Shown: in pieces, positions 3,019 to 52,233 of the stretch
How positions within the stretch are numbered: position 1 is the stretch's first letter
Layout of the letters: each line of letters opens with the position of its first letter
Assembly: GCA_001781915.1 (NCBI GenBank)
Contig: MFMU01000003.1
Location: forward strand, 1,188-57,968
Source: Candidatus Kaiserbacteria bacterium RIFOXYD1_FULL_47_14
GTDB lineage: Bacteria; Patescibacteriota; Minisyncoccia; Phycocordibacterales; Phycocordibacteraceae
Length of the DNA stretch: 56,781 nucleotides
Reading direction: 5' to 3'
Made by a program: the position numbers and the translations under genes
The notes under the pieces: model-generated
Databases searched by the model: none
The model's input: only the letters and a program-made list of their open reading frames with translations
What the model was told of the DNA's origin: nothing

Positions 3019-3839
3019 GAGAAGAAACGGCTGTCACCAAAACACTCCTCACCCAAAAGCTCGGTATCTCGCTCCGTTCACTCTGGTACAAACCGAAGAA
3101 GCCAGACAGGGACTGGAAACTCAAATGTCGCATCGAGGAGGTGTTGCGAGAACATCCGTCATACGGATCTCGGAGAATCGCTCTGCATCTGAAAATGAAT
3201 CGGAAGCCGATCAAGCGAGTGATGAACCTGTTCGGCATCAAGGCGTATCGGAGACGAGGCCAGAAGTGGAAGAAAACCAAGAATATCAAGGTGATTTATC
3301 CGAATCTGCTCATGACGGAATGTCCACTGTATGAGAATCACATCTGGGTATCCGACTTCACCCGCCTGCCGTTTCAGGGCAAGGTGGTGTATGTCGCAAC
3401 GGTTGAGGATTTGTTCACTAGAAAGATTGTCGGTCTCTCGGTGTATACCAACCATGCGGTTGGTCTGGTGTTGTCGGCATTCATGAATGCCATTCATGAC
3501 CATGCTCGACCAGTCATCTTCCATTCTGACAACGGCAGTGAATACAATGCCAAGGTATTCATTGAAGCACTCGAGACCGTTGGCGTTATGATCTCTCGCT
3601 CAGCTCCAGGATGCCCGTGGGAGAATGGGTATCAAGAGAGCTTCTATGACAAATTCAAAGTGGATCTTGGTGATCCTGCTAGATTCAAAACGCTCGGCGA
3701 ACTCGTGCTCGCCATCTATCAGACAATCTGGCAGTACAACCACACTAGAATCCACTCGGCATTGAAAATACCGCCTGTGCAATTTGCGCTTCAGGCGGCA
3801 CAGATATATCATTTAGCTAACAAGGAAGGCGTGCAATGA
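3015..3839 (+). CDS. IS3-family transposase OrfB (DDE/rve integrase core)
   Basis: WVSDFT...HSDNGSEY...PWENGYQESF, the typical DDE spacing of rve-type transposases. Confidence 0.85.
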   Translation: MREETAVTKTLLTQKLGISLRSLWYKPKKPDRDWKLKCRIEEVLREHPSYGSRRIALHLKMNRKPIKRVMNLFGIKAYRRRGQKWKKTKNIKVIYPNLLMTECPLYENHIWVSDFTRLPFQGKVVYVATVEDLFTRKIVGLSVYTNHAVGLVLSAFMNAIHDHARPVIFHSDNGSEYNAKVFIEALETVGVMISRSAPGCPWENGYQESFYDKFKVDLGDPARFKTLGELVLAIYQTIWQYNHTRIHSALKIPPVQFALQAAQIYHLANKEGVQ

Positions 3840-14307: not shown

Positions 14308-14619
14308 TTATGCTGTCTGCGACAATTGGAGAATACTATTAAAATCGTCATCTTTCGAGGTTTTGTTTTTCCTCTCAAAACCGCACGCGACACAGCGATG
14401 GAGGATGGTATATTCCCCGCCGTCGAATTCAACGCCGACTGGTTCCATCGCGCCGCCGCAGACGGCGGCGCGATCGCCCGGATTCACATCAACATGCTTG
14501 CTCCAGAGGCATTTCGGGCAATGGTTAGTGTAGCCATTCCCCAGCACGAAGAACCCGCACCGCTCGCAGGTAAAGTCCTCGCTCGTTCTTTGGAATTTCT
14601 TTGTCGGGGCCATATCCAC
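14308..14619 (-). CDS. RNHCP-domain zinc-ribbon protein
   Basis: FTCERCG...YTNHCPKCLWSKHVD...CGG.MEP...HRCVACG matches the RNHCP-domain pattern as I recall it. Confidence 0.6.
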   Translation of the reverse strand: MDMAPTKKFQRTSEDFTCERCGFFVLGNGYTNHCPKCLWSKHVDVNPGDRAAVCGGAMEPVGVEFDGGEYTILHRCVACGFERKNKTSKDDDFNSILQLSQTA

Positions 14620-15803: not shown

Positions 15804-17189
15804 ATGGTACATAGCATACAGAATTTTGAGGCGCTTGCTTGCCCCGAGCCAGTCGATGGGGCGGAGAATGACTTGCGGCGGGATGCGCTCGAGATAGCCG
15901 AGGCAGGATATGCAGCAATAAATGTCGGCTCTGCTATCGAAAGAAAAATGAGTATTAAAAATGATGTCTTGCAGATTATGGACGGAACTTCTAAGGCGAC
16001 GCCTCAGACGAAAACCTACCACCTTGCGGGGCGGCGTGTATTTTTTGTCGGCATCGGCAAGTGCGCTCTGACGGCGGCAAGCGCGATAGAAAAACTCTTC
16101 GGCGATACGCTCACCGGCGGAATTGCCTTCGATGTCTCTGCCGAATTTTTGAGAAAGTCAGACATCCACCGCAACGGTGGATGTCTGACTTCCTCTTCAA
16201 AAATCGAGGTCTTCATCGGCACCCATCCTCTGCCGAGCGAAGTAAACGAACAGGCAACGAAGCGCATTATCGAATTTCTTTCTGATTGTCGCGAAGATGA
16301 TTTAGTCATCTTTCTTATTTCGGGCGGCGGTTCTACCCTACTCTGCTCGCCCGAAGCACCGATGACCCCTGCCGACGAGAGTGCACTTTTTAAAGAACTC
16401 ACCGCGCACGGAGCGACGATACAAGACATTAATACGGTGCGAAAGCATATCTCCAGCGCGCGCGGCGGCGGCCTTGCGCGCGCGGCCTATCCCGCTGAAA
16501 TTCTCTCACTCATTGTGTCTGATGTACCCGGAAACGATATCGCTTTCATTTCTTCCGGCCCAACCGTGCAGGATTCGTCAACGATTACTGATGCAAAAGA
16601 AGTTCTCGCACGCTATAACATCACTATCTCAAACATCACATTCATAGAAACGCCGAAAGAAGAAAAGTATTTTGAACGAGTAACCAACCTGCTCTTTCTT
16701 ACGAGTAAAGATGCGCTCGATGCAATGAAAGATGAGGCGGCGAAACGCGGATATGAAACCGAAATAGTGGACGATCATTTTTCTGGCGAAGCCAGAGAAG
16801 TTGGCCGCGCCGTTGTAGAAAAATTGCATGATGCATCACAAAAAACCGCATTGCTTTACGCCGGCGAAAGCACGGTAACCTTGAGGGAGGTCAGACCTCC
16901 CTCACAGGCAGGCGGACGCAATCAAGAAATAGCGCTTGCCTCGCTCGAAACCATTCTTGACGACGAAATTATTCTGCCCTTCGCTTCTGATGGCCACGAT
17001 AATACTGATTATGCCGGAGCAATTGGCGACAGTATCTCGCGAGCGCACGCGAGCGAGCACAATCTTTCAATCGCCGAATATATTGTTGCGCATCGTTCGT
17101 ATGAATTCTTTTCCATAACCGGCGACGCACTCAGCACTGGCTATACTGGATCAAACATATCTGACCTTATCATCGCGCTTAAAAAATAA
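15804..17189 (+). CDS. glycerate 2-kinase (MOFRL/DUF4147 family, GckA/TtuD-like)
   Basis: LISGGGSTLL, VSDVPGNDIAFISSGPT and GGRNQEIALA are motifs of MOFRL glycerate kinases. Confidence 0.8.
   Translation: MVHSIQNFEALACPEPVDGAENDLRRDALEIAEAGYAAINVGSAIERKMSIKNDVLQIMDGTSKATPQTKTYHLAGRRVFFVGIGKCALTAASAIEKLFGDTLTGGIAFDVSAEFLRKSDIHRNGGCLTSSSKIEVFIGTHPLPSEVNEQATKRIIEFLSDCREDDLVIFLISGGGSTLLCSPEAPMTPADESALFKELTAHGATIQDINTVRKHISSARGGGLARAAYPAEILSLIVSDVPGNDIAFISSGPTVQDSSTITDAKEVLARYNITISNITFIETPKEEKYFERVTNLLFLTSKDALDAMKDEAAKRGYETEIVDDHFSGEAREVGRAVVEKLHDASQKTALLYAGESTVTLREVRPPSQAGGRNQEIALASLETILDDEIILPFASDGHDNTDYAGAIGDSISRAHASEHNLSIAEYIVAHRSYEFFSITGDALSTGYTGSNISDLIIALKK
16155..16191. repeat. perfect 17-bp-arm palindrome with CAA loop inside the glycerate kinase CDS
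   Basis: AAGTCAGACATCCACCG-CAA-CGGTGGATGTCTGACTT. Encodes ..RKSDIHRNGGCLTS.. Confidence 0.9.
16882..16904. repeat. 11-bp-arm palindrome inside the glycerate kinase CDS
   Basis: TGAGGGAGGTC-a-GACCTCCCTCA. Encodes LREVRPPS just before the conserved GGRNQE. Confidence 0.85.
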
Positions 17190-19587: not shown

Positions 19588-20859
19588 ATGCACATTGACC
19601 GCATTGAAGCCAAATCGATTCTCGACACGCGCGGGCGGCCGACGATAGAGACGACACTCTTTTCTGGAACGCTTGAAGCAACAGCGTCGGTACCTTCGGG
19701 GAAAAGCACCGGGAAACACGAAGCACTCGAGCTGCGCGACGCTGATGACAGCGTCGCGCAAGCCATAAAGAATGTAAATGGAGAAATTGCGACGGCGATT
19801 ACCGAGCGTGATTTCAATTCGCTCGATGAGCTTGATAATTTCTTGATCTCGCTCGACGGCACGCCGAATAAATCACGACTCGGTGCGAACGCGATTCTCT
19901 CGGTCTCGATTGCCGCGATGCGGCTTTCTGCACTGCAAGAAAATATGCCACTCTGGCAAGCAATCGCGAAGCGTGCAGGAACTACTCCTTCGACTCCTCG
20001 GCTTTTTGTTAATGTCATGAACGGCGGCGCGCACGCTGGCTTTCCCTCAAACAAGTTCGGAACAGGTAAACTTCCCTTCCAAGAATATCTCTTGGTTGTT
20101 GAAGGAAAAACGAGTGAGACATTCCCTATCGCACAAGAACTATTCGCGAAACTCGGCGAACTTCTGTGGAAGCCAGGCGTCCACAACAATTGTGGACGCC
20201 TGGCTTCCACAACATCGATGGGCGATGAAGGCGGTTATGCGCCGACCTTCGACACGCTCGAAAAACCATTCGAGCTTCTCGCCGAACTCGTTAAAGAATT
20301 CCCGAATACTTCAATCGCGATTGATGCGGCAGCGAGTGAGCTATTCCATGACGGCGTGTACCAGCTCCTCGGGAAATCGTATTCTCCCGACGAGCTCGCG
20401 GCAATTTATCGTGAGCTTGTCGAACGATTTTCTCTTCATAGCATTGAAGACCCGTTTGCCGAGAATGCAGGAACTGATTTTGCAAAGCTTACGGCCACAT
20501 TGAACAGCCCCTCGACTCCGCTCGGGGCAACGACACTAGTCGTTGGCGACGATTTAACTGTCACCAATCCCGCACGCATTATTGAAGCAGCAAAAAATAA
20601 AGAAATAAATGCAGTGCTAATTAAACCGAATCAAATCGGCACGGTCAAAGAAGCGCTCGAAGCAGTGAGAGAAACCTATAACGCCGGATGGGAGGTTGTC
20701 GCCTCGCATCGTTCGGGAGAGACGAGCGATACCTTCATCGCGGACTTCGCGTACGGTATCGGCGCACATGGTTTGAAAGCTGGTGGCTTCGCTCAGCCCG
20801 AGCGTCTTGTGAAATACGAGCGATTACTCGCCATAGAACACGAAGCAGAAACAAGATAA
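19588..20859 (+). CDS. eno: enolase, carrying a 15-codon palindromic insertion
   Basis: ILDTRGRPTIE, MGDEGGYAP, IKPNQIGT and SHRSGET motifs. Confidence 0.95.
   Translation: MHIDRIEAKSILDTRGRPTIETTLFSGTLEATASVPSGKSTGKHEALELRDADDSVAQAIKNVNGEIATAITERDFNSLDELDNFLISLDGTPNKSRLGANAILSVSIAAMRLSALQENMPLWQAIAKRAGTTPSTPRLFVNVMNGGAHAGFPSNKFGTGKLPFQEYLLVVEGKTSETFPIAQELFAKLGELLWKPGVHNNCGRLASTTSMGDEGGYAPTFDTLEKPFELLAELVKEFPNTSIAIDAAASELFHDGVYQLLGKSYSPDELAAIYRELVERFSLHSIEDPFAENAGTDFAKLTATLNSPSTPLGATTLVVGDDLTVTNPARIIEAAKNKEINAVLIKPNQIGTVKEALEAVRETYNAGWEVVASHRSGETSDTFIADFAYGIGAHGLKAGGFAQPERLVKYERLLAIEHEAETR
20166..20210. repeat. perfect 21-bp-arm palindrome with CAA loop (45 nt) in-frame in enolase
   Basis: GTGGAAGCCAGGCGTCCACAA-CAA-TTGTGGACGCCTGGCTTCCAC. 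The arms contain TGTGGACGCCTGGC, which is identical to the REP flanking 42741..43451. Confidence 0.95.
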
Positions 20860-26584: not shown

Positions 26585-26937
26585 TACCTCCTACTCGAAA
26601 GCCGGAACTGCGCAAACAAAGCAATCGTGCCGCCGAGATTGTCGCGCATGAAGCGGCGCAATTCATCGCACGCGAAGCAAGCAACGAATCACTTATCACC
26701 GTCATCCGCGCACAAAGCGTCGCCCACGGAGATCGTATGATGGTTTTCGTCAGCGTCTTCCCGGTCGAGAAAACGCGCGCCGCGCTCGCCTTCCTCGAGC
26801 ACCAGCGCGAAGCATTCTCGGATTATTTAAAAGTGCATGCGCGCCTTCGCCTTCCGCGCATCGACTTCCTTCCTGACAACGGCGAAGAGAGCGGCCAATT
26901 AGTAAACGAACTATCGAGAGGCCAGGGCGGGAATTGA
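26581..26937 (+). CDS. rbfA: ribosome-binding factor A
   Basis: Small basic protein overlapping the infB stop (ATGA). RbfA-like N-terminal segment. Its 3' end overlaps the antisense tRNA-Cys by 19 nt. Confidence 0.65.
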   Translation: MIPPTRKPELRKQSNRAAEIVAHEAAQFIAREASNESLITVIRAQSVAHGDRMMVFVSVFPVEKTRAALAFLEHQREAFSDYLKVHARLRLPRIDFLPDNGEESGQLVNELSRGQGGN

Positions 26938-26990
26938 ACCCGCGCATAGCGCTTTTGCAGAGCGCCGTGTTACCACTTCACCACCTGGCC
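26919..26990 (-). tRNA. tRNA-Cys (anticodon GCA)
   Basis: GGCCAGGTGGTGAAGTGGTAACACGGCGCTCTGCAAAAGCGCTATGCGCGGGTTCAATTCCCGCCCTGGCCT. Discriminator U. Confidence 0.85.
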
Positions 26991-27032
26991 CATAGTTAGA
27001 GAATAACAGAAATGTTACTATCATCAAAAGAT

Positions 27033-27122
27033 GCCGAGGTGGCGGAATAGGTAGACGCACAGGACTTAAAATCCTGAGAGGGCCTAAAAACCTTCATGTG
27101 GGTTCGATTCCCACCCTCGGTA
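27033..27122 (+). tRNA. tRNA-Leu (anticodon TAA), long variable arm
   Basis: GCCGAGGTGGCGGAATAGGTAGACGCACAGGACTTAAAATCCTG...GTGGGTTCGATTCCCACCCTCGGTA. Confidence 0.9.
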
Positions 27123-27130
27123 CTAGAAAA

Positions 27131-27257
27131 ATTTGTGGTCACAAATAATTCACTTGCCGTCGCAAGTGAATTTTCGCGACCCCGGCTCGCGGTTTTGCCT
27201 GCTGGCAAAACATCGCTGCGCCTCGCACAAGTAAAGAAACAGCATACTCTGTTTCTT
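27131..27257. other. hairpin-dense spacer between convergent tRNA genes
   Basis: Consecutive perfect stems: ATTTGT/ACAAAT, AATTCACTTGC/GCAAGTGAATT, CGCGA/TCGCG, GTTTTGCC/GGCAAAAC, AAGAAACAG/CTGTTTCTT. Confidence 0.7.
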
Positions 27258-27262
27258 TCATG

Positions 27263-27335
27263 TGCGCCCAGCAGGGCTCGGACCTGCGACCTTATCCTTA
27301 AGAGGGATCTGCTCTACCAACTGAGCTATGGGCGC
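27263..27335 (-). tRNA. tRNA-Lys (anticodon CTT); atypical T-loop
   Basis: GCGCCCATAGCTCAGTTGGTAGAGCAGATCCCTCTTAAGGATAAGGTCGCAGGTCCGAGCCCTGCTGGGCGCA. The T-loop reads TCCGAGC (C at position 55). Confidence 0.75.
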
Positions 27336-27463
27336 TGAAGCGAGGATAAACAAATGTGAGTCCTATTACATTTGTTTACTCCGAGTGAAGCGCTCATATC
27401 GAGTCATCGAAGATATGGGCGCCTAAAGAAAAATATAGCAGAACATAGTATGATTTGAAAGTC

Positions 27464-27492
27464 GCCCTTCTGCGCGTAAAGCTTCGAAGGGC
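27464..27492 (+). repeat. conserved hairpin immediately 5' of tRNA-Leu(TAG) (paralog of 12450..12478)
   Basis: GCCCTTCTGCGCGTAAAGCTTCGAAGGGC, 3 nt upstream of the tRNA 5' end. Confidence 0.7.
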
Positions 27493-27495
27493 ACG

Positions 27496-27577
27496 GCTGG
27501 GATGGCGAAATTGGTAGACGCACGAGCCCTAGGAGCTCGCGGGGCAACCCATGGAGGTTCGAGTCCTCTTCCCAGCA
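27496..27577 (+). tRNA. tRNA-Leu (anticodon TAG), long variable arm
   Basis: GCTGGGATGGCGAAATTGGTAGACGCACGAGCCCTAGGAGCTCG...GGAGGTTCGAGTCCTCTTCCCAGCA. The anticodon loop reads CCTAGGA (C at position 33). Confidence 0.8.
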
Positions 27578-36500: not shown

Positions 36501-36516
36501 ACCTATAAAATACCAT

Positions 36517-36539
36517 GCGCGGCCCGCTGCGGGCCGCGC
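36517..36539. repeat. GC-rich 11-bp-arm palindrome
   Basis: GCGCGGCCCGC-t-GCGGGCCGCGC, followed by the tandem decamer ATCAACACCC x2 (36541..36560). Confidence 0.8.
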
Positions 36540-36594
36540 AATCAACACCCATCAACACCCTTATAAAAATACCTTGATCTCCTATACCCACAAC

Positions 36595-36615
36595 TGTGGA
36601 CACTAAGTGTCTACA
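36595..36615. repeat. REP-like 21-nt palindrome, upstream flank of RAYT-like gene 1
   Basis: TGTGGACACT-a-AGTGTCTACA. Confidence 0.85.
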
Positions 36616-36641: not shown

Positions 36642-37334
36642 ATGGGGTACCGCGAAACAGGACTCGGCGCATATGTGCATGTTTGTAATCGCGGAGTAAA
36701 GAAGATGCCTATTTATCGTCACGAGACTGATTTGCGGCGTTTACATTCCCTCTTGTTCTATCTTAATCATAAAGAACCGATGCCGGATAATTGGACTAGA
36801 GATATTGAGGGAGGACTTAGTTCTCTGTCTTGGCCATCGTCATGGCAACCGCGCGAACCGATAGTGTCGATTCTTGCTTTTACACTTATGCCGAATCATT
36901 TTCATCTTTTTCTAAAAGAAATTACTGAAGGAGGGATCGCAAAATTCATGCATCGCGTTTCAATGGCGTATTCAAAGTTTATTAATCAAAAATACGGCGA
37001 AAGCGGACGTCTCTTTGAGGGTACATATAAATCACGAATTATTGAAGAAGAAACGGATTTCAAAAATCTTGCGGCGTATATTATGGTTAAAAATACTTTT
37101 GAATTATATCCTGGAGGATTAATGACCGCCTGCAGAGAATTTGAACCGGCATACGCGAGTGCGTTACATTATCCGTTTACCAGCTTAAAAGATTATGAAC
37201 ACTCTGAACACATATCGCCTATTTTAGACCGCGAACTTCTTGGTGAGCTCTTTGACAATTCTCACTCTTTTAAGAGTTTTGCTCAGGAATGTATGCTCCA
37301 TCGACTTGACGAACTCACCGAGCATCATTTGTAG
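36642..37334 (+). CDS. IS200/RAYT-like HUH (Y1) transposase, copy 1
   Basis: HUH motif LMPNHFHLFL. Tyr-helix AAYIMVKN. Flanked by inverted palindromes. Confidence 0.7.
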   Translation: MGYRETGLGAYVHVCNRGVKKMPIYRHETDLRRLHSLLFYLNHKEPMPDNWTRDIEGGLSSLSWPSSWQPREPIVSILAFTLMPNHFHLFLKEITEGGIAKFMHRVSMAYSKFINQKYGESGRLFEGTYKSRIIEEETDFKNLAAYIMVKNTFELYPGGLMTACREFEPAYASALHYPFTSLKDYEHSEHISPILDRELLGELFDNSHSFKSFAQECMLHRLDELTEHHL

Positions 37335-37350
37335 ACACTAAGTGTCCACA
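37330..37350. repeat. REP-like 21-nt palindrome, downstream flank of RAYT-like gene 1 (contains the stop codon)
   Basis: TGTAGACACT-a-AGTGTCCACA. Reverse complement of 36595..36615 except for the central base. Confidence 0.85.
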
Positions 37351-40423: not shown

Positions 40424-41104
40424 TTAAGGCGTTAATACCAGTATACTCCCATCGCGACCGATAAGATCTTTCTTCTTTAAGGTGAGTTTGTCTACTTTCT
40501 CGCTACCGTTCCCTGCTTCTTTCAAGAATGCTTCAAGCGCTTTTGACTGTCCGATACCACTCCAATGCATCGGTATGATAATCTTCGGCTCGAGCGAGAC
40601 CGCGAGCTCGTGCGCCTTTGCAGGAGAGAGAACGCCATCGTCCCCAATCGGCACGAAGAGCACATCTATTTCATCGATATTCTCTCGCGCTTCTTTCGAT
40701 AATTCTGCATCAGAAAGTGCTCCAAGATGTACGAGCGTCATATCTTCAAGTTCGACACTATATATTGTATTGACAAAACTTGGGGGTGAAACCCCCAAGT
40801 GATCTTTCGTAAGACCATAGTTGCTCTTAGAAAGGAATCCTTGGATAACAACGCCGGCGCGCTCGTATTCGCCGGGACCGGTAATAGCAAACGGTTTTTT
40901 GCCTGGCCTGAGTTTATTCGAAGGGTCGCCATACGCCACTTCTTCTACGCCATTCATATCCGGATGATCACGCGAAACGAGTGCAATATCCGCACCGAAG
41001 CGCACGGCGGGCATTGCCGACTTCTTGCTAATAGGGTCGAAAACAAGCGTTAAATCACCGAAAGTAATCTTGAAACATTGCCCGCCGTGATGCGTGATAA
41101 CCAT
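40424..41104 (-). CDS. MBL-fold metallo-hydrolase (UlaG/Lactamase_B_3-like)
   Basis: MVITHHGGQCFKI..LVFDP...SRDHPDMNG...IIPMHW. Confidence 0.65.
   Translation of the reverse strand: MVITHHGGQCFKITFGDLTLVFDPISKKSAMPAVRFGADIALVSRDHPDMNGVEEVAYGDPSNKLRPGKKPFAITGPGEYERAGVVIQGFLSKSNYGLTKDHLGVSPPSFVNTIYSVELEDMTLVHLGALSDAELSKEARENIDEIDVLFVPIGDDGVLSPAKAHELAVSLEPKIIIPMHWSGIGQSKALEAFLKEAGNGSEKVDKLTLKKKDLIGRDGSILVLTP
40778..40800. repeat. 10-bp-arm palindrome inside the MBL-fold CDS
   Basis: ACTTGGGGGT-gaa-ACCCCCAAGT. Shares GGTGAAACCCCCAAG with the trxB palindrome. Confidence 0.85.
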
Positions 41105-42693: not shown

Positions 42694-42714
42694 TGTGGAC
42701 GCCTGGCGTCCACA
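42694..42714. repeat. REP-like 21-nt palindrome, upstream flank of RAYT-like gene 2
   Basis: TGTGGACGCC-t-GGCGTCCACA. Confidence 0.9.
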
Positions 42715-42740: not shown

Positions 42741-43451
42741 ATGCGAAAAGAGGAATTTGCAACTGGTTCATATGTACATATAGTGAAGCGTGGAATACGC
42801 GGGTTGCCGATTGTTCGTGACGAAATTGACCGATTTCGGTTTTTGCTCATGCTCGCCCATTTCAATGATCAATTCATGTCTCTGAATTGGTATCGTGATT
42901 TAAAAGATGAGAATTTGCATAATTCTCTGCTGCGTCCGTCACACTGGCCGGCGCAAGAACGCCTTGTAAACATTATTGCGTTTTGTCTTGTTGAAAATCA
43001 TTTCCATTTAATTCTACAGGAACTTGCTGAAGGCAACATTGCTCGATTTATGCATCGACTTGGTACTGGAATGGCTAAACGGTTCAATGAACGATACGGC
43101 GAGCATGGTGCGTTATTTCAGGGACCTTATCGTGCAATAACAATTGACGACGACCGTTATTTTCGTTATGTAAGTGCCTATGTGCAAGTAAAAAATGCCA
43201 TTGATATGTATCCCGGCGGAAAGGATATCATTAAAAATGATTTTAATCGCACATACAATTGGATATGTTCTTATCCGTACTCAAGTATTGGGGACTATAC
43301 TGGCGATTTCAATAGAACGATTGTAGATACAACATTTCTTTCCTCATTGTTTACACCTGGCGAATATCGAGAATTTGCAAAAGATGTAATTCTCGGACGC
43401 TATCAACCTGACGACATAGACAAGAAACATCAATCAAAATTCTTTGATTAA
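42741..43451 (+). CDS. IS200/RAYT-like HUH (Y1) transposase, copy 2
   Basis: HUH motif LVENHFHLIL. Tyr-helix SAYVQVKN. Paralog of 36642..37334 (shared ..ARFMHR....K.FN..YGE.G.LF.G.Y.. and MYPGG). Confidence 0.7.
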   Translation: MRKEEFATGSYVHIVKRGIRGLPIVRDEIDRFRFLLMLAHFNDQFMSLNWYRDLKDENLHNSLLRPSHWPAQERLVNIIAFCLVENHFHLILQELAEGNIARFMHRLGTGMAKRFNERYGEHGALFQGPYRAITIDDDRYFRYVSAYVQVKNAIDMYPGGKDIIKNDFNRTYNWICSYPYSSIGDYTGDFNRTIVDTTFLSSLFTPGEYREFAKDVILGRYQPDDIDKKHQSKFFD

Positions 43452-43454
43452 TCC

Positions 43455-43475
43455 TGTGGACGCCAGGCGTCCACA
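43455..43475. repeat. REP-like 21-nt palindrome, downstream flank of RAYT-like gene 2
   Basis: TGTGGACGCC-a-GGCGTCCACA, the exact reverse complement of 42694..42714. Confidence 0.9.
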
Positions 43476-46203: not shown

Positions 46204-46664
46204 TGAGTGTCGACATAAAGAACAACACGCGGCGCCGTCTGACGGCGCCGCGAAACGCATTTTCAATACTCGCGAAAGAAGTGCTTCCCCAGTGGGACAT
46301 CTCGCTCGTTTTTGTCGGACCAAAAAAAGCAAAAACACTCAACGAAACATTACGCAACAAGACATACATTCCGAATGTTCTTTCGTATGCAGTTGGCGAC
46401 AAAAACGGCGAAATTTTTATTTGTCTCCACGAAGCCGCGAAACAAGCTCCTGCTTACAATTTGAACCTTACATCTTACACCTTGCTTTTATTTATCCACG
46501 GTTTATTACATCTCAAAGGGTGGGCACATGGTGTTAAGATGGAGAGATGCGAACAAAAACTGTTGGCGCGATTTGTTTGTTCTTATGTCGCGACGAGTAG
46601 CAACCGGAATCGATATCGGCACCTACCAGATAAAAATGGTCGTGGTCGAGGAACTCACAGATAA
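46203..46664 (+). CDS. ybeY: rRNA maturation endoribonuclease YbeY
   Basis: Zinc motif HGLLHLKGWAH. TAATG overlap with rpsU. The 3' tail overlaps ftsA. Confidence 0.75.
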   Translation: MSVDIKNNTRRRLTAPRNAFSILAKEVLPQWDISLVFVGPKKAKTLNETLRNKTYIPNVLSYAVGDKNGEIFICLHEAAKQAPAYNLNLTSYTLLLFIHGLLHLKGWAHGVKMERCEQKLLARFVCSYVATSSNRNRYRHLPDKNGRGRGTHR

Positions 46665-51288: not shown

Positions 51289-52233
51289 ATGAATGACCTC
51301 ATTATTATTGGCGGCGGGCCTGCGGGTATCGCTGCGGGCGTGTATGCAGCGCGGAAACATCTGAAGACGATTCTTATCTCGGGAGAGATTGGCGGACAAT
51401 CGATTGTATCAGATGATATAGAAAATTGGATCGGCACGCCGAAAGTGAGCGGTGCTGACCTCGCGAAATCGCTACGCGCGCATCTTGATGCAGTGAAATG
51501 CGATATCGTAAAGTTAGCGCTTGGCGAGCGAGTTGTCTCGCTAGAATCACTTGGCGGTGAAACCCACAAGTTGCTTGGGGGTTTCACCGCCAAAACGAAA
51601 TCGGGGAAAGACTTCTCTGCGAAAGCTATACTCATCGCCTCGGGCGCGCGCCGCCGGAAGCTTGATGTCCCCGGTGCCGATAAGTTTGAAAATAAAGGCG
51701 TAACCTACTGCGCTTCCTGCGATGGTCTTCTCTTCGCAGACAAAGATGTCGCGGTCATCGGAGGCGGTAATGCCGGCTTCGAGACCGCGCTCCAGCTCCT
51801 CGCCTATGCAAAGTCAGTAACGCTTATCCATCGACATCAGGAGTTTAAGGCCGATCCTGTCTCTGTTGAAAAAGCTCTCGCCCACTCGGCTATGAGCGTG
51901 ATTCGGAATGCCGAACCGGTTGAAGTGATGGGCAAACAATTTGTGACTGGTCTGAAATATAAAGATGTCATTTCAGAAGAAGTGAAAGAACTCGCGGTCT
52001 CTGGCATCTTCGTCGAAGCGGGCGTGATGCCGAACACTGATTTTGCCGAAGGACTTGTCGAGTTCGATTCGGTGAAGCGCGTAAAGACCGACCCGCGCAC
52101 CCAGCGCACGAGCGTCGAGGGCATCTGGGCAGCTGGCGACTGCACCGACGAACTCTACCATCAGAACAACATCGCCGCCGGCGACGGCGTTAAAGCGGCA
52201 GAAGATATCTATCTTTGGATAAAGAAACACTAA
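51289..52233 (+). CDS. trxB: thioredoxin-disulfide reductase carrying a palindromic insertion
   Basis: IIIGGGPAGIAAGVYAAR, redox CASCDG, GGGNAGFETA and AAGDCTD. Confidence 0.9.
   Translation: MNDLIIIGGGPAGIAAGVYAARKHLKTILISGEIGGQSIVSDDIENWIGTPKVSGADLAKSLRAHLDAVKCDIVKLALGERVVSLESLGGETHKLLGGFTAKTKSGKDFSAKAILIASGARRRKLDVPGADKFENKGVTYCASCDGLLFADKDVAVIGGGNAGFETALQLLAYAKSVTLIHRHQEFKADPVSVEKALAHSAMSVIRNAEPVEVMGKQFVTGLKYKDVISEEVKELAVSGIFVEAGVMPNTDFAEGLVEFDSVKRVKTDPRTQRTSVEGIWAAGDCTDELYHQNNIAAGDGVKAAEDIYLWIKKH
51550..51593. repeat. 44-nt palindrome in-frame region of trxB
   Basis: TTGGCGGTGAAACCC-aCAAG-ttg-CTTGg-GGGTTTCACCGCCAA. Encodes LGGETHKLLGGFTAK. Confidence 0.9.

What the first reader, a model, noticed from the sequence alone, without database searches (positions are those of the whole stretch)
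20166..20210. 45-nt perfect palindrome inserted in-frame in enolase, built from the REP of a RAYT-like transposase 22 kb away
GTGGAAGCCAGGCGTCCACAA-CAA-TTGTGGACGCCTGGCTTCCAC has 21-bp perfect arms. It spans exactly 15 codons and encodes (L)WKPGVHNNCGRLAS(T), just upstream of the invariant MGDEGGYAP motif. Enolases I know have only a short loop there.

Each arm contains TGTGGACGCCTGGC, identical to the first 14 nt of the 21-nt palindromes that bracket the HUH-transposase gene at 42741..43451. So this looks like a REPIN-like doublet mobilised by that enzyme and tolerated inside an essential glycolytic gene.

This is analogous to Rickettsia palindromic elements, but here the candidate mobilising enzyme is identifiable in cis.
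Basis: partly seen in the sequence, partly recalled or inferred. Interest (0 to 1): 0.8.

Follow-up and report, generated by a model that had tools for sequence, protein, structure and literature searches.

The report
REP hairpin doublet inside enolase gene
A perfect 47-base DNA palindrome lying in frame inside the enolase gene of a Kaiserbacteria (candidate phyla radiation) genome is a back-to-back pair of the small hairpin repeat that flanks a nearby transposase-like gene. Related species carry other versions of such repeats at exactly the same spot, so this is a long-lived landing site for mobile repeats inside an essential enzyme.

Summary
Positions 20165-20211 form a perfect palindrome (22-nt arms, CAA loop) inside enolase (19588..20859). 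It adds about 15 residues that most orthologs lack, in a loop the structure model leaves as low-confidence coil.

Each arm is itself a 21-nt hairpin. It is 20/21 identical to the two REPs flanking the Y1/HUH (RAYT-like) gene at 42741..43451, and 21/21 identical to the REP flanking that gene's ortholog in a relative.

It is not a one-off:
- The same codon boundary of enolase carries doublets of different REP types in 13 scattered lineages, and shorter pieces in others. About 100 orthologs are empty.
- One lineage carries the REP type of a second RAYT-like gene in this window (36642..37334).
- Similar doublets sit in glycerate kinase (16150-16196) and thioredoxin reductase (51551-51593).
- Both levels of palindromy covary, with almost no G:T pairs.
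- Copy number looks very low: 1-2 doublets per genome.

The best reading is an anciently colonised intragenic REP site that the RAYTs keep turning over. In-frame intragenic REPs and Rickettsia palindromic elements are already known, so this is a new variant of a known kind, not a new category.

The parts
20165..20211 (+). 47-nt perfect palindrome: an inverted doublet of two 21-nt REP hairpins joined by a 5-nt linker (ACAAT). Net +45 nt, in frame in enolase.
20165..20185 (+). Left REP unit TGTGGAAGCCAGGCGTCCACA (9/10 stem pairs, 1-nt loop). 20/21 identical to the REP at 43455-43475.
20191..20211 (+). Right REP unit TGTGGACGCCTGGCTTCCACA. 20/21 identical to the REP at 42694-42714 and 21/21 to the REP 3' of the RAYT ortholog in L047.
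19588..20859 (+). Enolase CDS (423 aa) hosting the insert. The insert codes residues about 194-208, between helix 175-194 and the MGDEGG strand.
42741..43451 (+). RAYT-like Y1/HUH gene (RAYT-1, 236 aa), lying between the S1 and Pth genes here and in four relatives.
42694..42714 (.). 5' flanking REP1, TGTGGACGCC T GGCGTCCACA (perfect 10-bp stem).
43455..43475 (.). 3' flanking REP1, TGTGGACGCC A GGCGTCCACA (inverted relative to the 5' copy).
16150..16196 (+). Second in-frame REP doublet (diverged type, CAA centre) in glycerate 2-kinase. Codes LRKSDIHRNGGCLTSS, in the same frame relative to the element as in enolase.
15804..17189 (+). Glycerate 2-kinase CDS (DUF4147 + MOFRL) hosting the second doublet.
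51551..51593 (+). Third in-frame nested palindrome: a doublet of the hairpin TTGGCGGT-GAA-ACCGCCAA (REP3-like) in thioredoxin reductase. Adds about 6-7 residues. Also present in L135, absent in L047 and L137.
51289..52233 (+). Thioredoxin-reductase-like CDS hosting the third doublet.
36642..37334 (+). Second RAYT-like Y1/HUH gene (RAYT-2, 230 aa, about 37% identical to RAYT-1).
36595..36615 (.). REP2 5' of RAYT-2, TGTGGACAC TAA GTGTCTACA.
37330..37350 (.). REP2 3' of RAYT-2, TGTAGACAC TAA GTGTCCACA (overlaps the stop codon). A REP2-type doublet occupies the enolase site in L132.

Best explanation
The palindrome is a non-autonomous REP element: two copies of a 21-nt REP hairpin, head to head with a 5-nt linker. 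This is a miniature BIME/REPIN. It belongs to the REP family whose founder copies flank a vertically inherited, RAYT-like Y1/HUH gene 22 kb away.

It sits in a permissive surface loop of enolase. It adds 45 nt net and is read in the one frame of the element that never contains a stop codon, so the enzyme gains 15 loop residues and survives.

Shown here: the site was colonised long ago in this Kaiserbacteria clade, and its occupant differs between lineages.

Inferred mechanism: the RAYT binds REP hairpins extruded in single-stranded DNA, cleaves beside them and rejoins strands. A resident REP is therefore itself the preferred target. The occupant can then be replaced by the lineage's current REP type, halved, eroded or lost. 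The exact complementarity of the arms reflects DNA-level copying, by the element's own replication and/or quasipalindrome correction, rather than selection on an RNA fold.
For: Identity with the RAYT REPs:
- The arms are 20/21 identical to this genome's RAYT-1 REPs and 21/21 to the REP flanking the RAYT-1 ortholog in L047.

The RAYT-like gene:
- Pfam Y1_Tnp scores 34.2 bits against a cut-off of 23.
- H87, H89 and Y147 are invariant in 19 homologs.
- The gene is about 236 aa and conserved at 60-80% identity. It lies between S1 and Pth in L047-L050, L135 and L137, and REPs flank it in all six species examined.

It is an insertion:
- About 100 orthologs read L-G[ND]VP-MGDEGG. Thirteen carry 17-22 residues and 15 carry 8-12.
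- For 11 of the 13 filled enolases the closest ortholog in the set is an empty one.

Turnover at one site:
- Ten filled sites read at DNA level are all nested palindromes at the same codon boundary, but with different REP sequences.
- L132 carries a REP2 doublet 20/21 identical to the REP flanking RAYT-2 in this window.
- The L134 type equals an intergenic singlet in L137. The L069 remnant matches the REPs around the L137 RAYT.
- In genome C the enolase and glycerate-kinase doublets share a lineage-specific type.

Element ends:
- The Leu codon before the insert is YTG or TTA in 10/10 filled sites and CTY in 7/7 empty sites examined. The outermost TG..CA (TA..TA in L133) covary.

Covariation in 12 elements:
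- Long hairpin: 95.5% of cells paired, 18/22 pairs changed on both sides, 0/500 shuffles as high, and only 1 G:U-type cell.
- REP-level hairpins: 87% paired, 15/18 pairs changed on both sides.

Frame and structure:
- The frame used is stop-free in 13/13 elements. Frame +0 has stops in 11/13.
- pLDDT is below 50 at residues 199-207, predicted as coil.

Literature:
- E. coli TnpA-REP cleaves and recombines REP/BIME single strands. Its authors propose that integration is recombination with a target that already carries a REP/BIME (PMC3333891).
- TnpA-REPs co-evolve with their cognate REPs (PMC8266576).
Against: - No transposition event or filled/empty polymorphism within a population was observed. 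Mobilisation is inference.
- Copy number looks tiny. A strict doublet pattern scanned over 185,579 species genomes hit only three related species, 1-2 sites each. Classical REPIN populations have tens to hundreds of copies. The pattern was narrow, however, and MAGs lose repeats: 15 of 19 contigs carrying one RAYT are under 2 kb.
- The rest of this genome could not be searched.
- The protein scores only 26 bits against NCBIfam's RAYT model (cut-off 80).
- In genome B the enolase arms are only about 84% like that genome's RAYT REPs.
- No RAYT could be paired with the L001, L003 or L061 types.
- Recurrence at one codon in operon-linked glycolytic genes could instead reflect a host function.
Confidence: 0.7

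Rival explanations
1. The site is hit repeatedly and independently because of its sequence. Each lineage's REP doublet inserted afresh into an empty enolase site recognised by the transposase, as IS200/IS605 elements insert next to a specific tetranucleotide. No resident REP is needed.
For: - Different REP families, including REP2, occupy exactly the same boundary.
- The filled state is scattered on the tree.
- A C|T step lies at the 5' edge of most REPs. This resembles the C|T cleavage requirement of E. coli TnpA-REP (PMC3333891).
Against: - A 4-5-nt target would occur thousands of times per genome, yet the census finds 1-2 doublets per MAG.
- No distinctive motif is shared by the enolase, glycerate-kinase, thioredoxin-reductase and L027 flanks beyond a pyrimidine.
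- L132 keeps ACATCCACG, the 3' half of a REP1-type hairpin, directly after its REP2 doublet. That suggests insertion into an occupied site.
Confidence: 0.15
2. The palindromes are host-selected functional elements rather than selfish passengers. They could be a DNA or RNA hairpin regulating the glycerate kinase-PPDK-enolase gene cluster, or a useful protein loop. The RAYT-flanking copies would then be incidental.
For: - The position is conserved across lineages as divergent as 65-83% identity to the window enolase, and there is a parallel insert in the neighbouring glycerate kinase.
- Structure is kept through compensatory change.
- Insert peptides are more conserved than their hosts in two pairs: hosts 71-73% identical, inserts 13/15.
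Against: - About 100 close orthologs do without it, and decayed remnants are common.
- Peptide sequences differ widely between types (WKPGVHNNCGRLAS, RRLNLPNHEGGLTS, PKLNFGSCYRSLTS).
- The near absence of G:T pairs argues against selection on RNA pairing.
- The same element types occur beside RAYT genes, in intergenic DNA and in an unrelated giant ORF in another frame (L027).
Confidence: 0.1
3. The palindromes arise locally, without a transposase, by template switching during replication (inverted duplication and quasipalindrome correction).
For: - Complementarity is exact and free of wobble pairs.
- In thioredoxin reductase the left arm aligns with native residues and only the right arm is extra.
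- A native LRD..VAQ stretch of enolase has been sharpened into a 12-bp palindrome (19733-19760) in this genome and L001 only.
Against: - It cannot explain 20-21/21 identity to REPs 22 kb away or in other species.
- It cannot explain a REP2-type doublet at the same site, or one lineage-specific type shared by two genes.
- In enolase both arms are absent from empty orthologs.
Confidence: 0.04
4. The palindrome is an assembly or amplification artefact, such as a fold-back chimera.
For: Perfect palindromes can be produced by MDA or by assembly errors. Reads were not available.
Against: - An independent JGI assembly has the identical insert (P0034).
- Nine other enolase loci from separate assemblies carry palindromes at the same site, with intact enolase on both sides and the frame preserved.
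- The inserted sequence is not a copy of the adjacent native sequence.
Confidence: 0.01

Closest known systems
REP/BIME-TnpA-REP (RAYT) 'REPtrons' and REPINs of Proteobacteria (Nunvar 2010; Bertels & Rainey 2011; Ton-Hoang 2012, PMC3333891; Corneloup 2021, PMC8266576)
   Same: - A Y1/HUH gene flanked by short REP hairpins that begin with a GT(A/G)G-like tag.
- The same REPs found elsewhere as inverted doublets.
- A gene at fixed loci that is vertically inherited.
- REP sequence diverging together with the gene between lineages.
   Different: - The doublets here are 47 nt with a 5-nt linker and lie inside coding sequence, not between genes.
- Apparent copy number is a handful, not tens to hundreds.
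- The host is a CPR bacterium.
- The protein does not reach the NCBIfam RAYT cut-off.
Intragenic GTAG/CGTC REPs (Di Nocera et al. 2013, PMC3733652)
   Same: REP singlets and dimers inserted in frame in known genes, adding about 20-30 residues, in genomes that also have RAYTs.
   Different: - There they are a minority of large extragenic families and hit different sites.
- Here intragenic copies are the main non-RAYT copies seen.
- One orthologous site shows replacement by different REP types across a clade. That behaviour was not found in the parts of that paper read here.
Rickettsia palindromic elements (RPE; Ogata et al. 2000, cited in PMC3733652)
   Same: Palindromic selfish DNA inserted in frame in protein-coding genes, including housekeeping genes, and tolerated as extra peptide segments.
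   Different: - RPE-1 is about 100-150 bp (from memory), with no identified transposase, and occurs in an alphaproteobacterial lineage.
- Here the element is 45-47 nt with a candidate enzyme and founder copies in the same contig.
IS200/IS605 elements and their non-autonomous derivatives (PATEs); IS elements that target REPs
   Same: - Single-strand hairpin recognition by a Y1 HUH enzyme.
- No terminal inverted repeats and no target duplication.
- REPs acting as insertion targets (PMC3733652).
   Different: The element carries no gene and no distinct left and right ends. It is a symmetric doublet of one hairpin.
Quasipalindrome correction / template-switch mutagenesis
   Same: It would keep the arms exactly complementary and spread a change to both arms. 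That matches the wobble-free covariation.
   Different: It is a local process and cannot account for identity with distant RAYT-flanking REPs. It is at most a maintenance mechanism here.

Membership tests
RAYT / TnpA-REP (REP-associated Y1 transposase) | Y1 HUH fold with an HUH motif and a catalytic tyrosine. | tested here: met
   - Pfam PF01797: 34.2 bits for RAYT-1 and 33.1 bits for RAYT-2, against a cut-off of 23.
- NHFHL and Y..Y....KN are invariant in 19 homologs.
- A weak profile match to IS200/IS605-family transposase chains 2xm3/2xma, E = 0.07, aligned over the HUH motif.
RAYT / TnpA-REP | Reaches the curated RAYT model (NCBIfam NF047646). | tested here: not met
   26.1 bits against a cut-off of 80. 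It is a distant relative, not an equivalog of the proteobacterial RAYTs.
RAYT / TnpA-REP | Gene flanked by REP hairpins (REPtron). | tested here: met
   - RAYT-1: 42694-42714 and 43455-43475. RAYT-2: 36595-36615 and 37330-37350.
- The same arrangement is seen in L005, L047, L135, L136 and L137.
RAYT / TnpA-REP | Single or low copy and vertically inherited, unlike IS transposases. | tested here: met
   - S1-RAYT-Pth synteny in the window, L047-L050, L135 and L137.
- L005 and L136 have a different context.
- The window holds two paralogs only 37% identical to each other.
REP / REPIN / BIME | Short imperfect or perfect hairpin with a conserved 5' GTAG-like tag. | tested here: met
   - T-GTGG-A or T-GTAG-A begins REP1 and REP2. 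A GTAG variant occurs in the L006 arm and in the 3' REP2.
- There are 36 such 21-23-nt hairpins in 436 kb, against 0-2 in shuffles.
REP / REPIN / BIME | Two REPs in inverted orientation separated by a short spacer. | tested here: met
   21 + 5 + 21 nt in 9 enolase sites, 21 + 6 + 21 nt in L062, plus glycerate kinase and L027.
REP / REPIN / BIME | Many copies per genome (tens to hundreds), extragenic. | tested here: not met
   - 1-2 doublets per MAG under a strict pattern.
- In about 555 kb of related loci the non-terminator long palindromes are intragenic.
- REP singlets are seen mostly beside RAYT genes.
- Caveats: the pattern was narrow, the MAGs are incomplete, and this genome was not searchable.
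REP / REPIN / BIME | Mobilised by the cognate RAYT. | not testable with these tools
   Only indirect support:
- REP types at the enolase site match RAYT-flanking REP types.
- The two doublets of genome C share a lineage-specific type.
Rickettsia palindromic elements (RPE) | In-frame insertion in ORFs that stay intact. | tested here: met
   Enolase, glycerate kinase and thioredoxin reductase remain full-length with catalytic motifs intact.
Rickettsia palindromic elements (RPE) | Sequence or size class of the RPE families, in Rickettsia. | not tested
   Different size (45-47 nt) and a different phylum. No RPE sequence was compared, so this is an analogy only.

The most novel reading that the evidence does not exclude
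The enolase, glycerate-kinase and thioredoxin-reductase sites are resident 'landing pads' at which the RAYTs carry out cassette exchange. This would be a natural, site-directed single-strand DNA recombination acting inside essential genes. It would keep a tiny, almost wholly intragenic REP population alive for the whole history of a CPR class. The hairpins may also have been co-opted, for example to couple expression of the glycolytic genes to DNA or RNA hairpin formation.
Probability: 0.2. Interest if true: 0.75.

Novelty: new variant of a known kind. Interest (0 to 1): 0.6.

Why it matters
- It extends REP/RAYT systems to the candidate phyla radiation. There genomes are tiny and intergenic space is scarce, and the repeats seem to persist mainly inside genes.
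- The enolase site is a natural time series. Across one clade the same codon boundary is empty, holds a doublet of at least ten sequence types from two or more REP families, holds a singlet, or holds a relic. That makes a long-standing open question testable: how REPs disseminate, and whether a resident REP is the integration target, as proposed from in vitro work on E. coli TnpA-REP.
- It explains at least some of the lineage-specific short insertions that make CPR proteins look odd.
- It warns annotators and structure modellers that such segments are repeat-derived.
- The flanking REPs also appear to fragment assemblies around the RAYT genes.

Tried and rejected
- Rfam at gathering thresholds on the whole window: only seven tRNAs, nothing at the palindromes.
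- blastn of the insert region against plasmids: no match.
- phmmer of RAYT-1 against PDB sequences: only noise. A profile of 19 homologs gave just a weak IS200/IS605 transposase match.
- Scan of genome contigs with CAGNNNTCNACNNCAANNGTNGANNNCTG: 40 stretches, of which only L027, L032 and L036 are real family members. The rest are unrelated hairpins or chance hits. This contig was not returned, so a whole-genome census of this organism was impossible.
- L027 first looked non-coding because the ORF listing omits ORFs that run off the locus. The doublet lies in an open frame of at least 1,624 codons, in another frame of the element.
- Pairing the RAYT REPs and the intragenic doublets of one genome succeeded only for this window and for genome B (L005/L006).
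- I asked whether L001 and L047 come from one organism. This could not be decided.
- I asked whether the PSNKFGTG and NSPSTPLGA inserts of the same enolase are palindromic elements. Only weak hairpins were found, so they are not claimed.
- Assembly artefact and purely local template switching were considered and rejected for the enolase insert. Reasons are given under the rival explanations.
Full report
**Observation**

The perfect palindrome is slightly longer: arms 20165-20186 and 20190-20211, 22 nt each, 100% complementary, with a 3-nt CAA loop.

It lies in a 423-aa ORF, 19588..20859 (+), that is clearly enolase (Pfam Enolase_N and Enolase_C; TIGR01060 323 bits against a cut-off of 300). 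The local reading is GELL-WKPGVHNNCGRLAS-TTS-MGDEGGYAP.

As a single strand it folds at -31.5 kcal/mol as DNA (z = -10.7) and -48.9 kcal/mol as RNA (z = -10.0).

The window holds 16 hairpins with stems of at least 12 bp and at most one mismatch, against 0-3 in ten Markov shuffles.

The contig is from Candidatus Kaiserbacteria bacterium RIFOXYD1_FULL_47_14 (P0001, 100% identical). An independent JGI contig encodes the identical insert (P0034).

**It is an insertion**

- Against yeast enolase the segment falls in a gap just before the GDEGG strand.
- In an alignment of 28 close orthologs, and in a survey of about 150 distinct sequences, the usual reading is KLGExL-G[ND]VP-MGDEGG, with 4-5 residues where this protein has 17.
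- An AlphaFold2 model built on that alignment (mean pLDDT 82.6) puts the insert in coil between helix 175-194 and the next strand. pLDDT is below 50 at residues 199-207.

**What it is made of**

Each arm is itself a 21-nt hairpin with a 9-10-bp stem and a 1-nt loop: TGTGGAAGCC-A-GGCGTCCACA and TGTGGACGCC-T-GGCTTCCACA. They are joined by ACAAT.

- The arms are 20/21 identical to the two palindromes at 42694-42714 and 43455-43475. The 14-mer search finds 8 hits against 0.22 expected.
- Those two palindromes bracket ORF 42741..43451.
- In a related species (L047, protein 81% identical) the REP 3' of the orthologous gene is TGTGGACGCCTGGCTTCCACA. That is the enolase arm, 21/21.

The bracketed gene looks like a RAYT:

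- It is a Y1/HUH protein (Pfam Y1_Tnp 34.2 bits, cut-off 23).
- NHFHL and the Y..Y....KN tyrosine motif are invariant in 19 homologs.
- It lies between the S1 and Pth genes in L047-L050, L135 and L137, and REPs flank it in all six species examined.
- JGI names homologs 'REP element-mobilizing transposase RayT'.
- It reaches only 26 bits on NCBIfam's RAYT model, whose cut-off is 80. It therefore works like a RAYT but is not an equivalog of the proteobacterial ones.

A second paralog lies at 36642..37334 (37% identical, Y1_Tnp 33.1 bits). It is flanked by its own REP2: TGTGGACAC-TAA-GTGTCTACA and TGTAGACAC-TAA-GTGTCCACA.

**Not a one-off: other genes**

Two more nested palindromes lie in frame in housekeeping genes of this window.

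- 16150-16196 in glycerate 2-kinase codes LRKSDIHRNGGCLTSS. It uses the same frame of the element as in enolase and adds about 12-13 residues relative to relatives and to PDB homologs.
- 51551-51593 in a thioredoxin-reductase-like gene is a doublet of the hairpin TTGGCGGT-GAA-ACCGCCAA. It is also present in L135 and absent in L047 and L137.

**Not a one-off: the same enolase site in relatives**

Among about 150 orthologs, 13 carry a 17-22-residue segment at exactly this boundary. Fifteen carry 8-12 residues, and some of those read like a single REP or a relic (RKSDFRQDMP, KSDFNNGNIP, APEGRLTSLT). About 100 are empty. Filled sequences are scattered on the tree, and for 11 of the 13 the closest ortholog in the set is an empty one.

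The DNA of ten filled sites shows a nested palindrome every time, but with different REP sequences:

| Locus | REP unit of the doublet |
|---|---|
| window | TGTGGAAGCC.. |
| L001 | TGAGGAAGTCTGACTTCCTCA |
| L003 | TGTCGAAATCAGATGTCGACA |
| L006 | TGAGGATGTCAGACATCCACG |
| L061 | TGAGGAAGCC.. |
| L062 | TGCGGAGGTTAAACCTCCCTA |
| L131 | TGCGGAAGTCAAACTTCCGCA |
| L132 | TGTGGACACTAAGTGTCCACA (REP2 type) |
| L133 | TACCGAAGTTAAACTTCGGTA |
| L134 | TGTGTAAGTCTGACTTACACA |

- The L132 doublet is 20/21 identical to the REP2 that flanks RAYT-2 in this window.
- Several of these types are found elsewhere as bona fide REPs. The L134 type is an intergenic singlet in L137. The L069 relic matches the REPs clustered around the L137 RAYT. 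The GTGGATGTC/GACATCCAC type flanks the RAYT in L135 and L136.
- In genome C (L003/L036) the enolase and glycerate-kinase doublets share a lineage-specific type.
- The Leu codon before the insert is YTG or TTA in 10/10 filled sites and CTY in 7/7 empty sites examined. The outermost TG..CA (TA..TA in L133) covary. The element is therefore a 47-nt palindrome that nets +45 nt.

**Constraints on the element**

In a 12-element alignment:

- The long hairpin is paired in 95.5% of cells. Eighteen of 22 pairs show changes on both sides, and 0 of 500 shuffles score as high.
- The REP-level hairpins are 87% paired, with 15 of 18 pairs changed on both sides.
- Only one G:U-type cell occurs among 264. The complementarity is exact, as expected from DNA-level copying rather than from selection on an RNA fold. 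This last step is inference.

The frame used in enolase and glycerate kinase is stop-free in all 13 elements examined. Frame +0 has stops in 11 of 13. L027 uses the third frame, inside an open frame of at least 1,624 codons.

**Abundance**

- A strict doublet pattern scanned over one genome for each of 185,579 species returned 40 stretches. Only three related species are true hits, with 1-2 sites each, at enolase, glycerate kinase and the L027 ORF.
- In about 555 kb of related loci, the long palindromes that are not terminators are intragenic.
- REP-like 21-23-nt hairpins number 36 in 436 kb against 0-2 in shuffles. Nearly all are at these sites or beside RAYT genes.
- The census is a lower bound. 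The pattern was narrow, this genome was not in the collection, and repeats break MAG assemblies: 15 of 19 contigs carrying one RAYT are under 2 kb, and one contig ends inside a REP.

**Mechanism**

Shown:
- The insert is an inverted doublet of a RAYT-associated REP.
- It is in frame, in a loop.
- The site is occupied by different REP types in different lineages.

Inferred:
- The RAYTs act on REP hairpins extruded in single-stranded DNA.
- Because a resident REP is itself a substrate, an anciently colonised site is repeatedly overwritten, halved, eroded or lost.

This inference follows in vitro work on E. coli TnpA-REP, which cleaves and recombines BIMEs. [quoted passage not shown] Later work showed that TnpA-REPs co-evolve with their REPs (PMC8266576).

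Two small observations fit this reading:
- A C|T step lies at the 5' edge of most REPs here. E. coli TnpA-REP needs a C|T for cleavage.
- L132 retains ACATCCACG, the 3' half of a REP1-type hairpin, just after its REP2 doublet.

**Rivals**

- Fresh, sequence-targeted insertion into empty sites (0.15).
- A host-selected regulatory hairpin or useful protein loop (0.10).
- Purely local template switching (0.04). This may still help keep the arms perfect.
- An assembly or amplification artefact (0.01).

**Comparison with what is known**

- In-frame palindromic elements are known from Rickettsia (RPE).
- In-frame REP singlets and dimers, coding 20-30 residues, are known in genomes with RAYTs (Di Nocera 2013, PMC3733652).
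- No paper combining Kaiserbacteria with palindromes was found, and no CPR-specific REP/RAYT paper was found.

What differs here:
- the CPR host;
- the compact 47-nt nested form;
- the apparently tiny and mainly intragenic population;
- the turnover of REP types, from at least two families, at one orthologous codon boundary.

**Verdict**

It is best classed as a new variant of a known kind, of moderate to good interest.

Noticed in passing
window 36642-37334, with 36595-36615 and 37330-37350: A second RAYT-like Y1/HUH gene (37% identical to the first), flanked by its own REP2 hairpins (TGTGGACAC TAA GTGTCTACA). The same REP2 forms the enolase-site doublet in a distant relative (L132).
   Followed up: yes
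window 16150-16196 (glycerate 2-kinase 15804..17189): A diverged REP doublet in frame, coding LRKSDIHRNGGCLTSS. Present in L001 and L003, absent in L006, L062 and others. The palindrome extends weakly into the flanks (GAATTTTTGA / TCAAAAATC).
   Followed up: yes
window 51551-51593 (thioredoxin-reductase-like 51289..52233): A nested palindrome of a third hairpin type. The left arm aligns with native residues and the right arm is the extra 6-7 residues. It is shared with L135 (17670-17712). No associated RAYT was identified.
   Followed up: partly
window 20044-20067 (enolase) and about 40900-40924 (MBL-fold ORF 40427..41104, minus strand): An 8-residue insert, PSNKFGTG, sits right after the HAG of enolase's catalytic loop L2 (pLDDT below 50). 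A similar peptide, PSNKLRPGK, is inserted in an unrelated protein. The resemblance is at peptide level and only weak at DNA level.
   Followed up: partly
window about 20494-20520, and relatives in alignment A1: These enolases carry several other patchy short inserts: NSPSTPLGA (with a GCCCC..GGGGC hairpin), HVHPAVA..AKGDGF, QQGSTLNPNSQGRT, KEFFESAPSAAQRNALEKFF and GRPSTKSDLVL. Their origin is unknown.
   Followed up: partly
window 19733-19760: A 12-bp perfect palindrome, TGCGCGACGCTG-ATGA-CAGCGTCGCGCA, within native enolase codons (ELRDADDSVAQ). Relatives have only the 8-bp core. It may be a quasipalindrome sharpened by template switching.
   Followed up: partly
window 36516-36540, 46228-46252, 14445-14476: GC-rich 25-32-nt palindromes in a genome of roughly 47% GC. 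The first (TGCGCGGCCCGC T GCGGGCCGCGCA, at the 5' end of a methyltransferase ORF) is conserved in L135 at 3509-3533. The third lies in an RNHCP-domain gene and is conserved in L001.
   Followed up: no
L060 enolase site and L047 about 1983 (MBL-fold gene): A mini-palindrome, TCCGCCAGCTGGCGGA, coding (G)PPAGG, appears as a 4-aa insert in two unrelated genes of different genomes.
   Followed up: no
L003 6390-6426 and 7273-7299 (glycerate kinase of genome C); L131 3204-3226, 4248-4270 and 5773-5795: Further REP2-like hairpins (GGACAC NNN GTGTCC; TGTCGAACAC CGA GTGTTCGACA), inside a CDS in genome C and in intergenic DNA in L131.
   Followed up: no
L049 end; contig-size summary for P0140: Contigs often end at, or are very short around, the RAYT gene: 15 of 19 contigs are under 2 kb, and one ends inside the REP. 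The REPs apparently break metagenome assemblies, so copy numbers taken from MAGs are underestimates.
   Followed up: partly
L001 14295-18212; L003 14406-15578; window 26919-27577: Downstream of IF-2, relatives carry an integrase (plus Prim-Pol in L001). This window has a cluster of four tRNA genes there, likely an integration hot spot.
   Followed up: no
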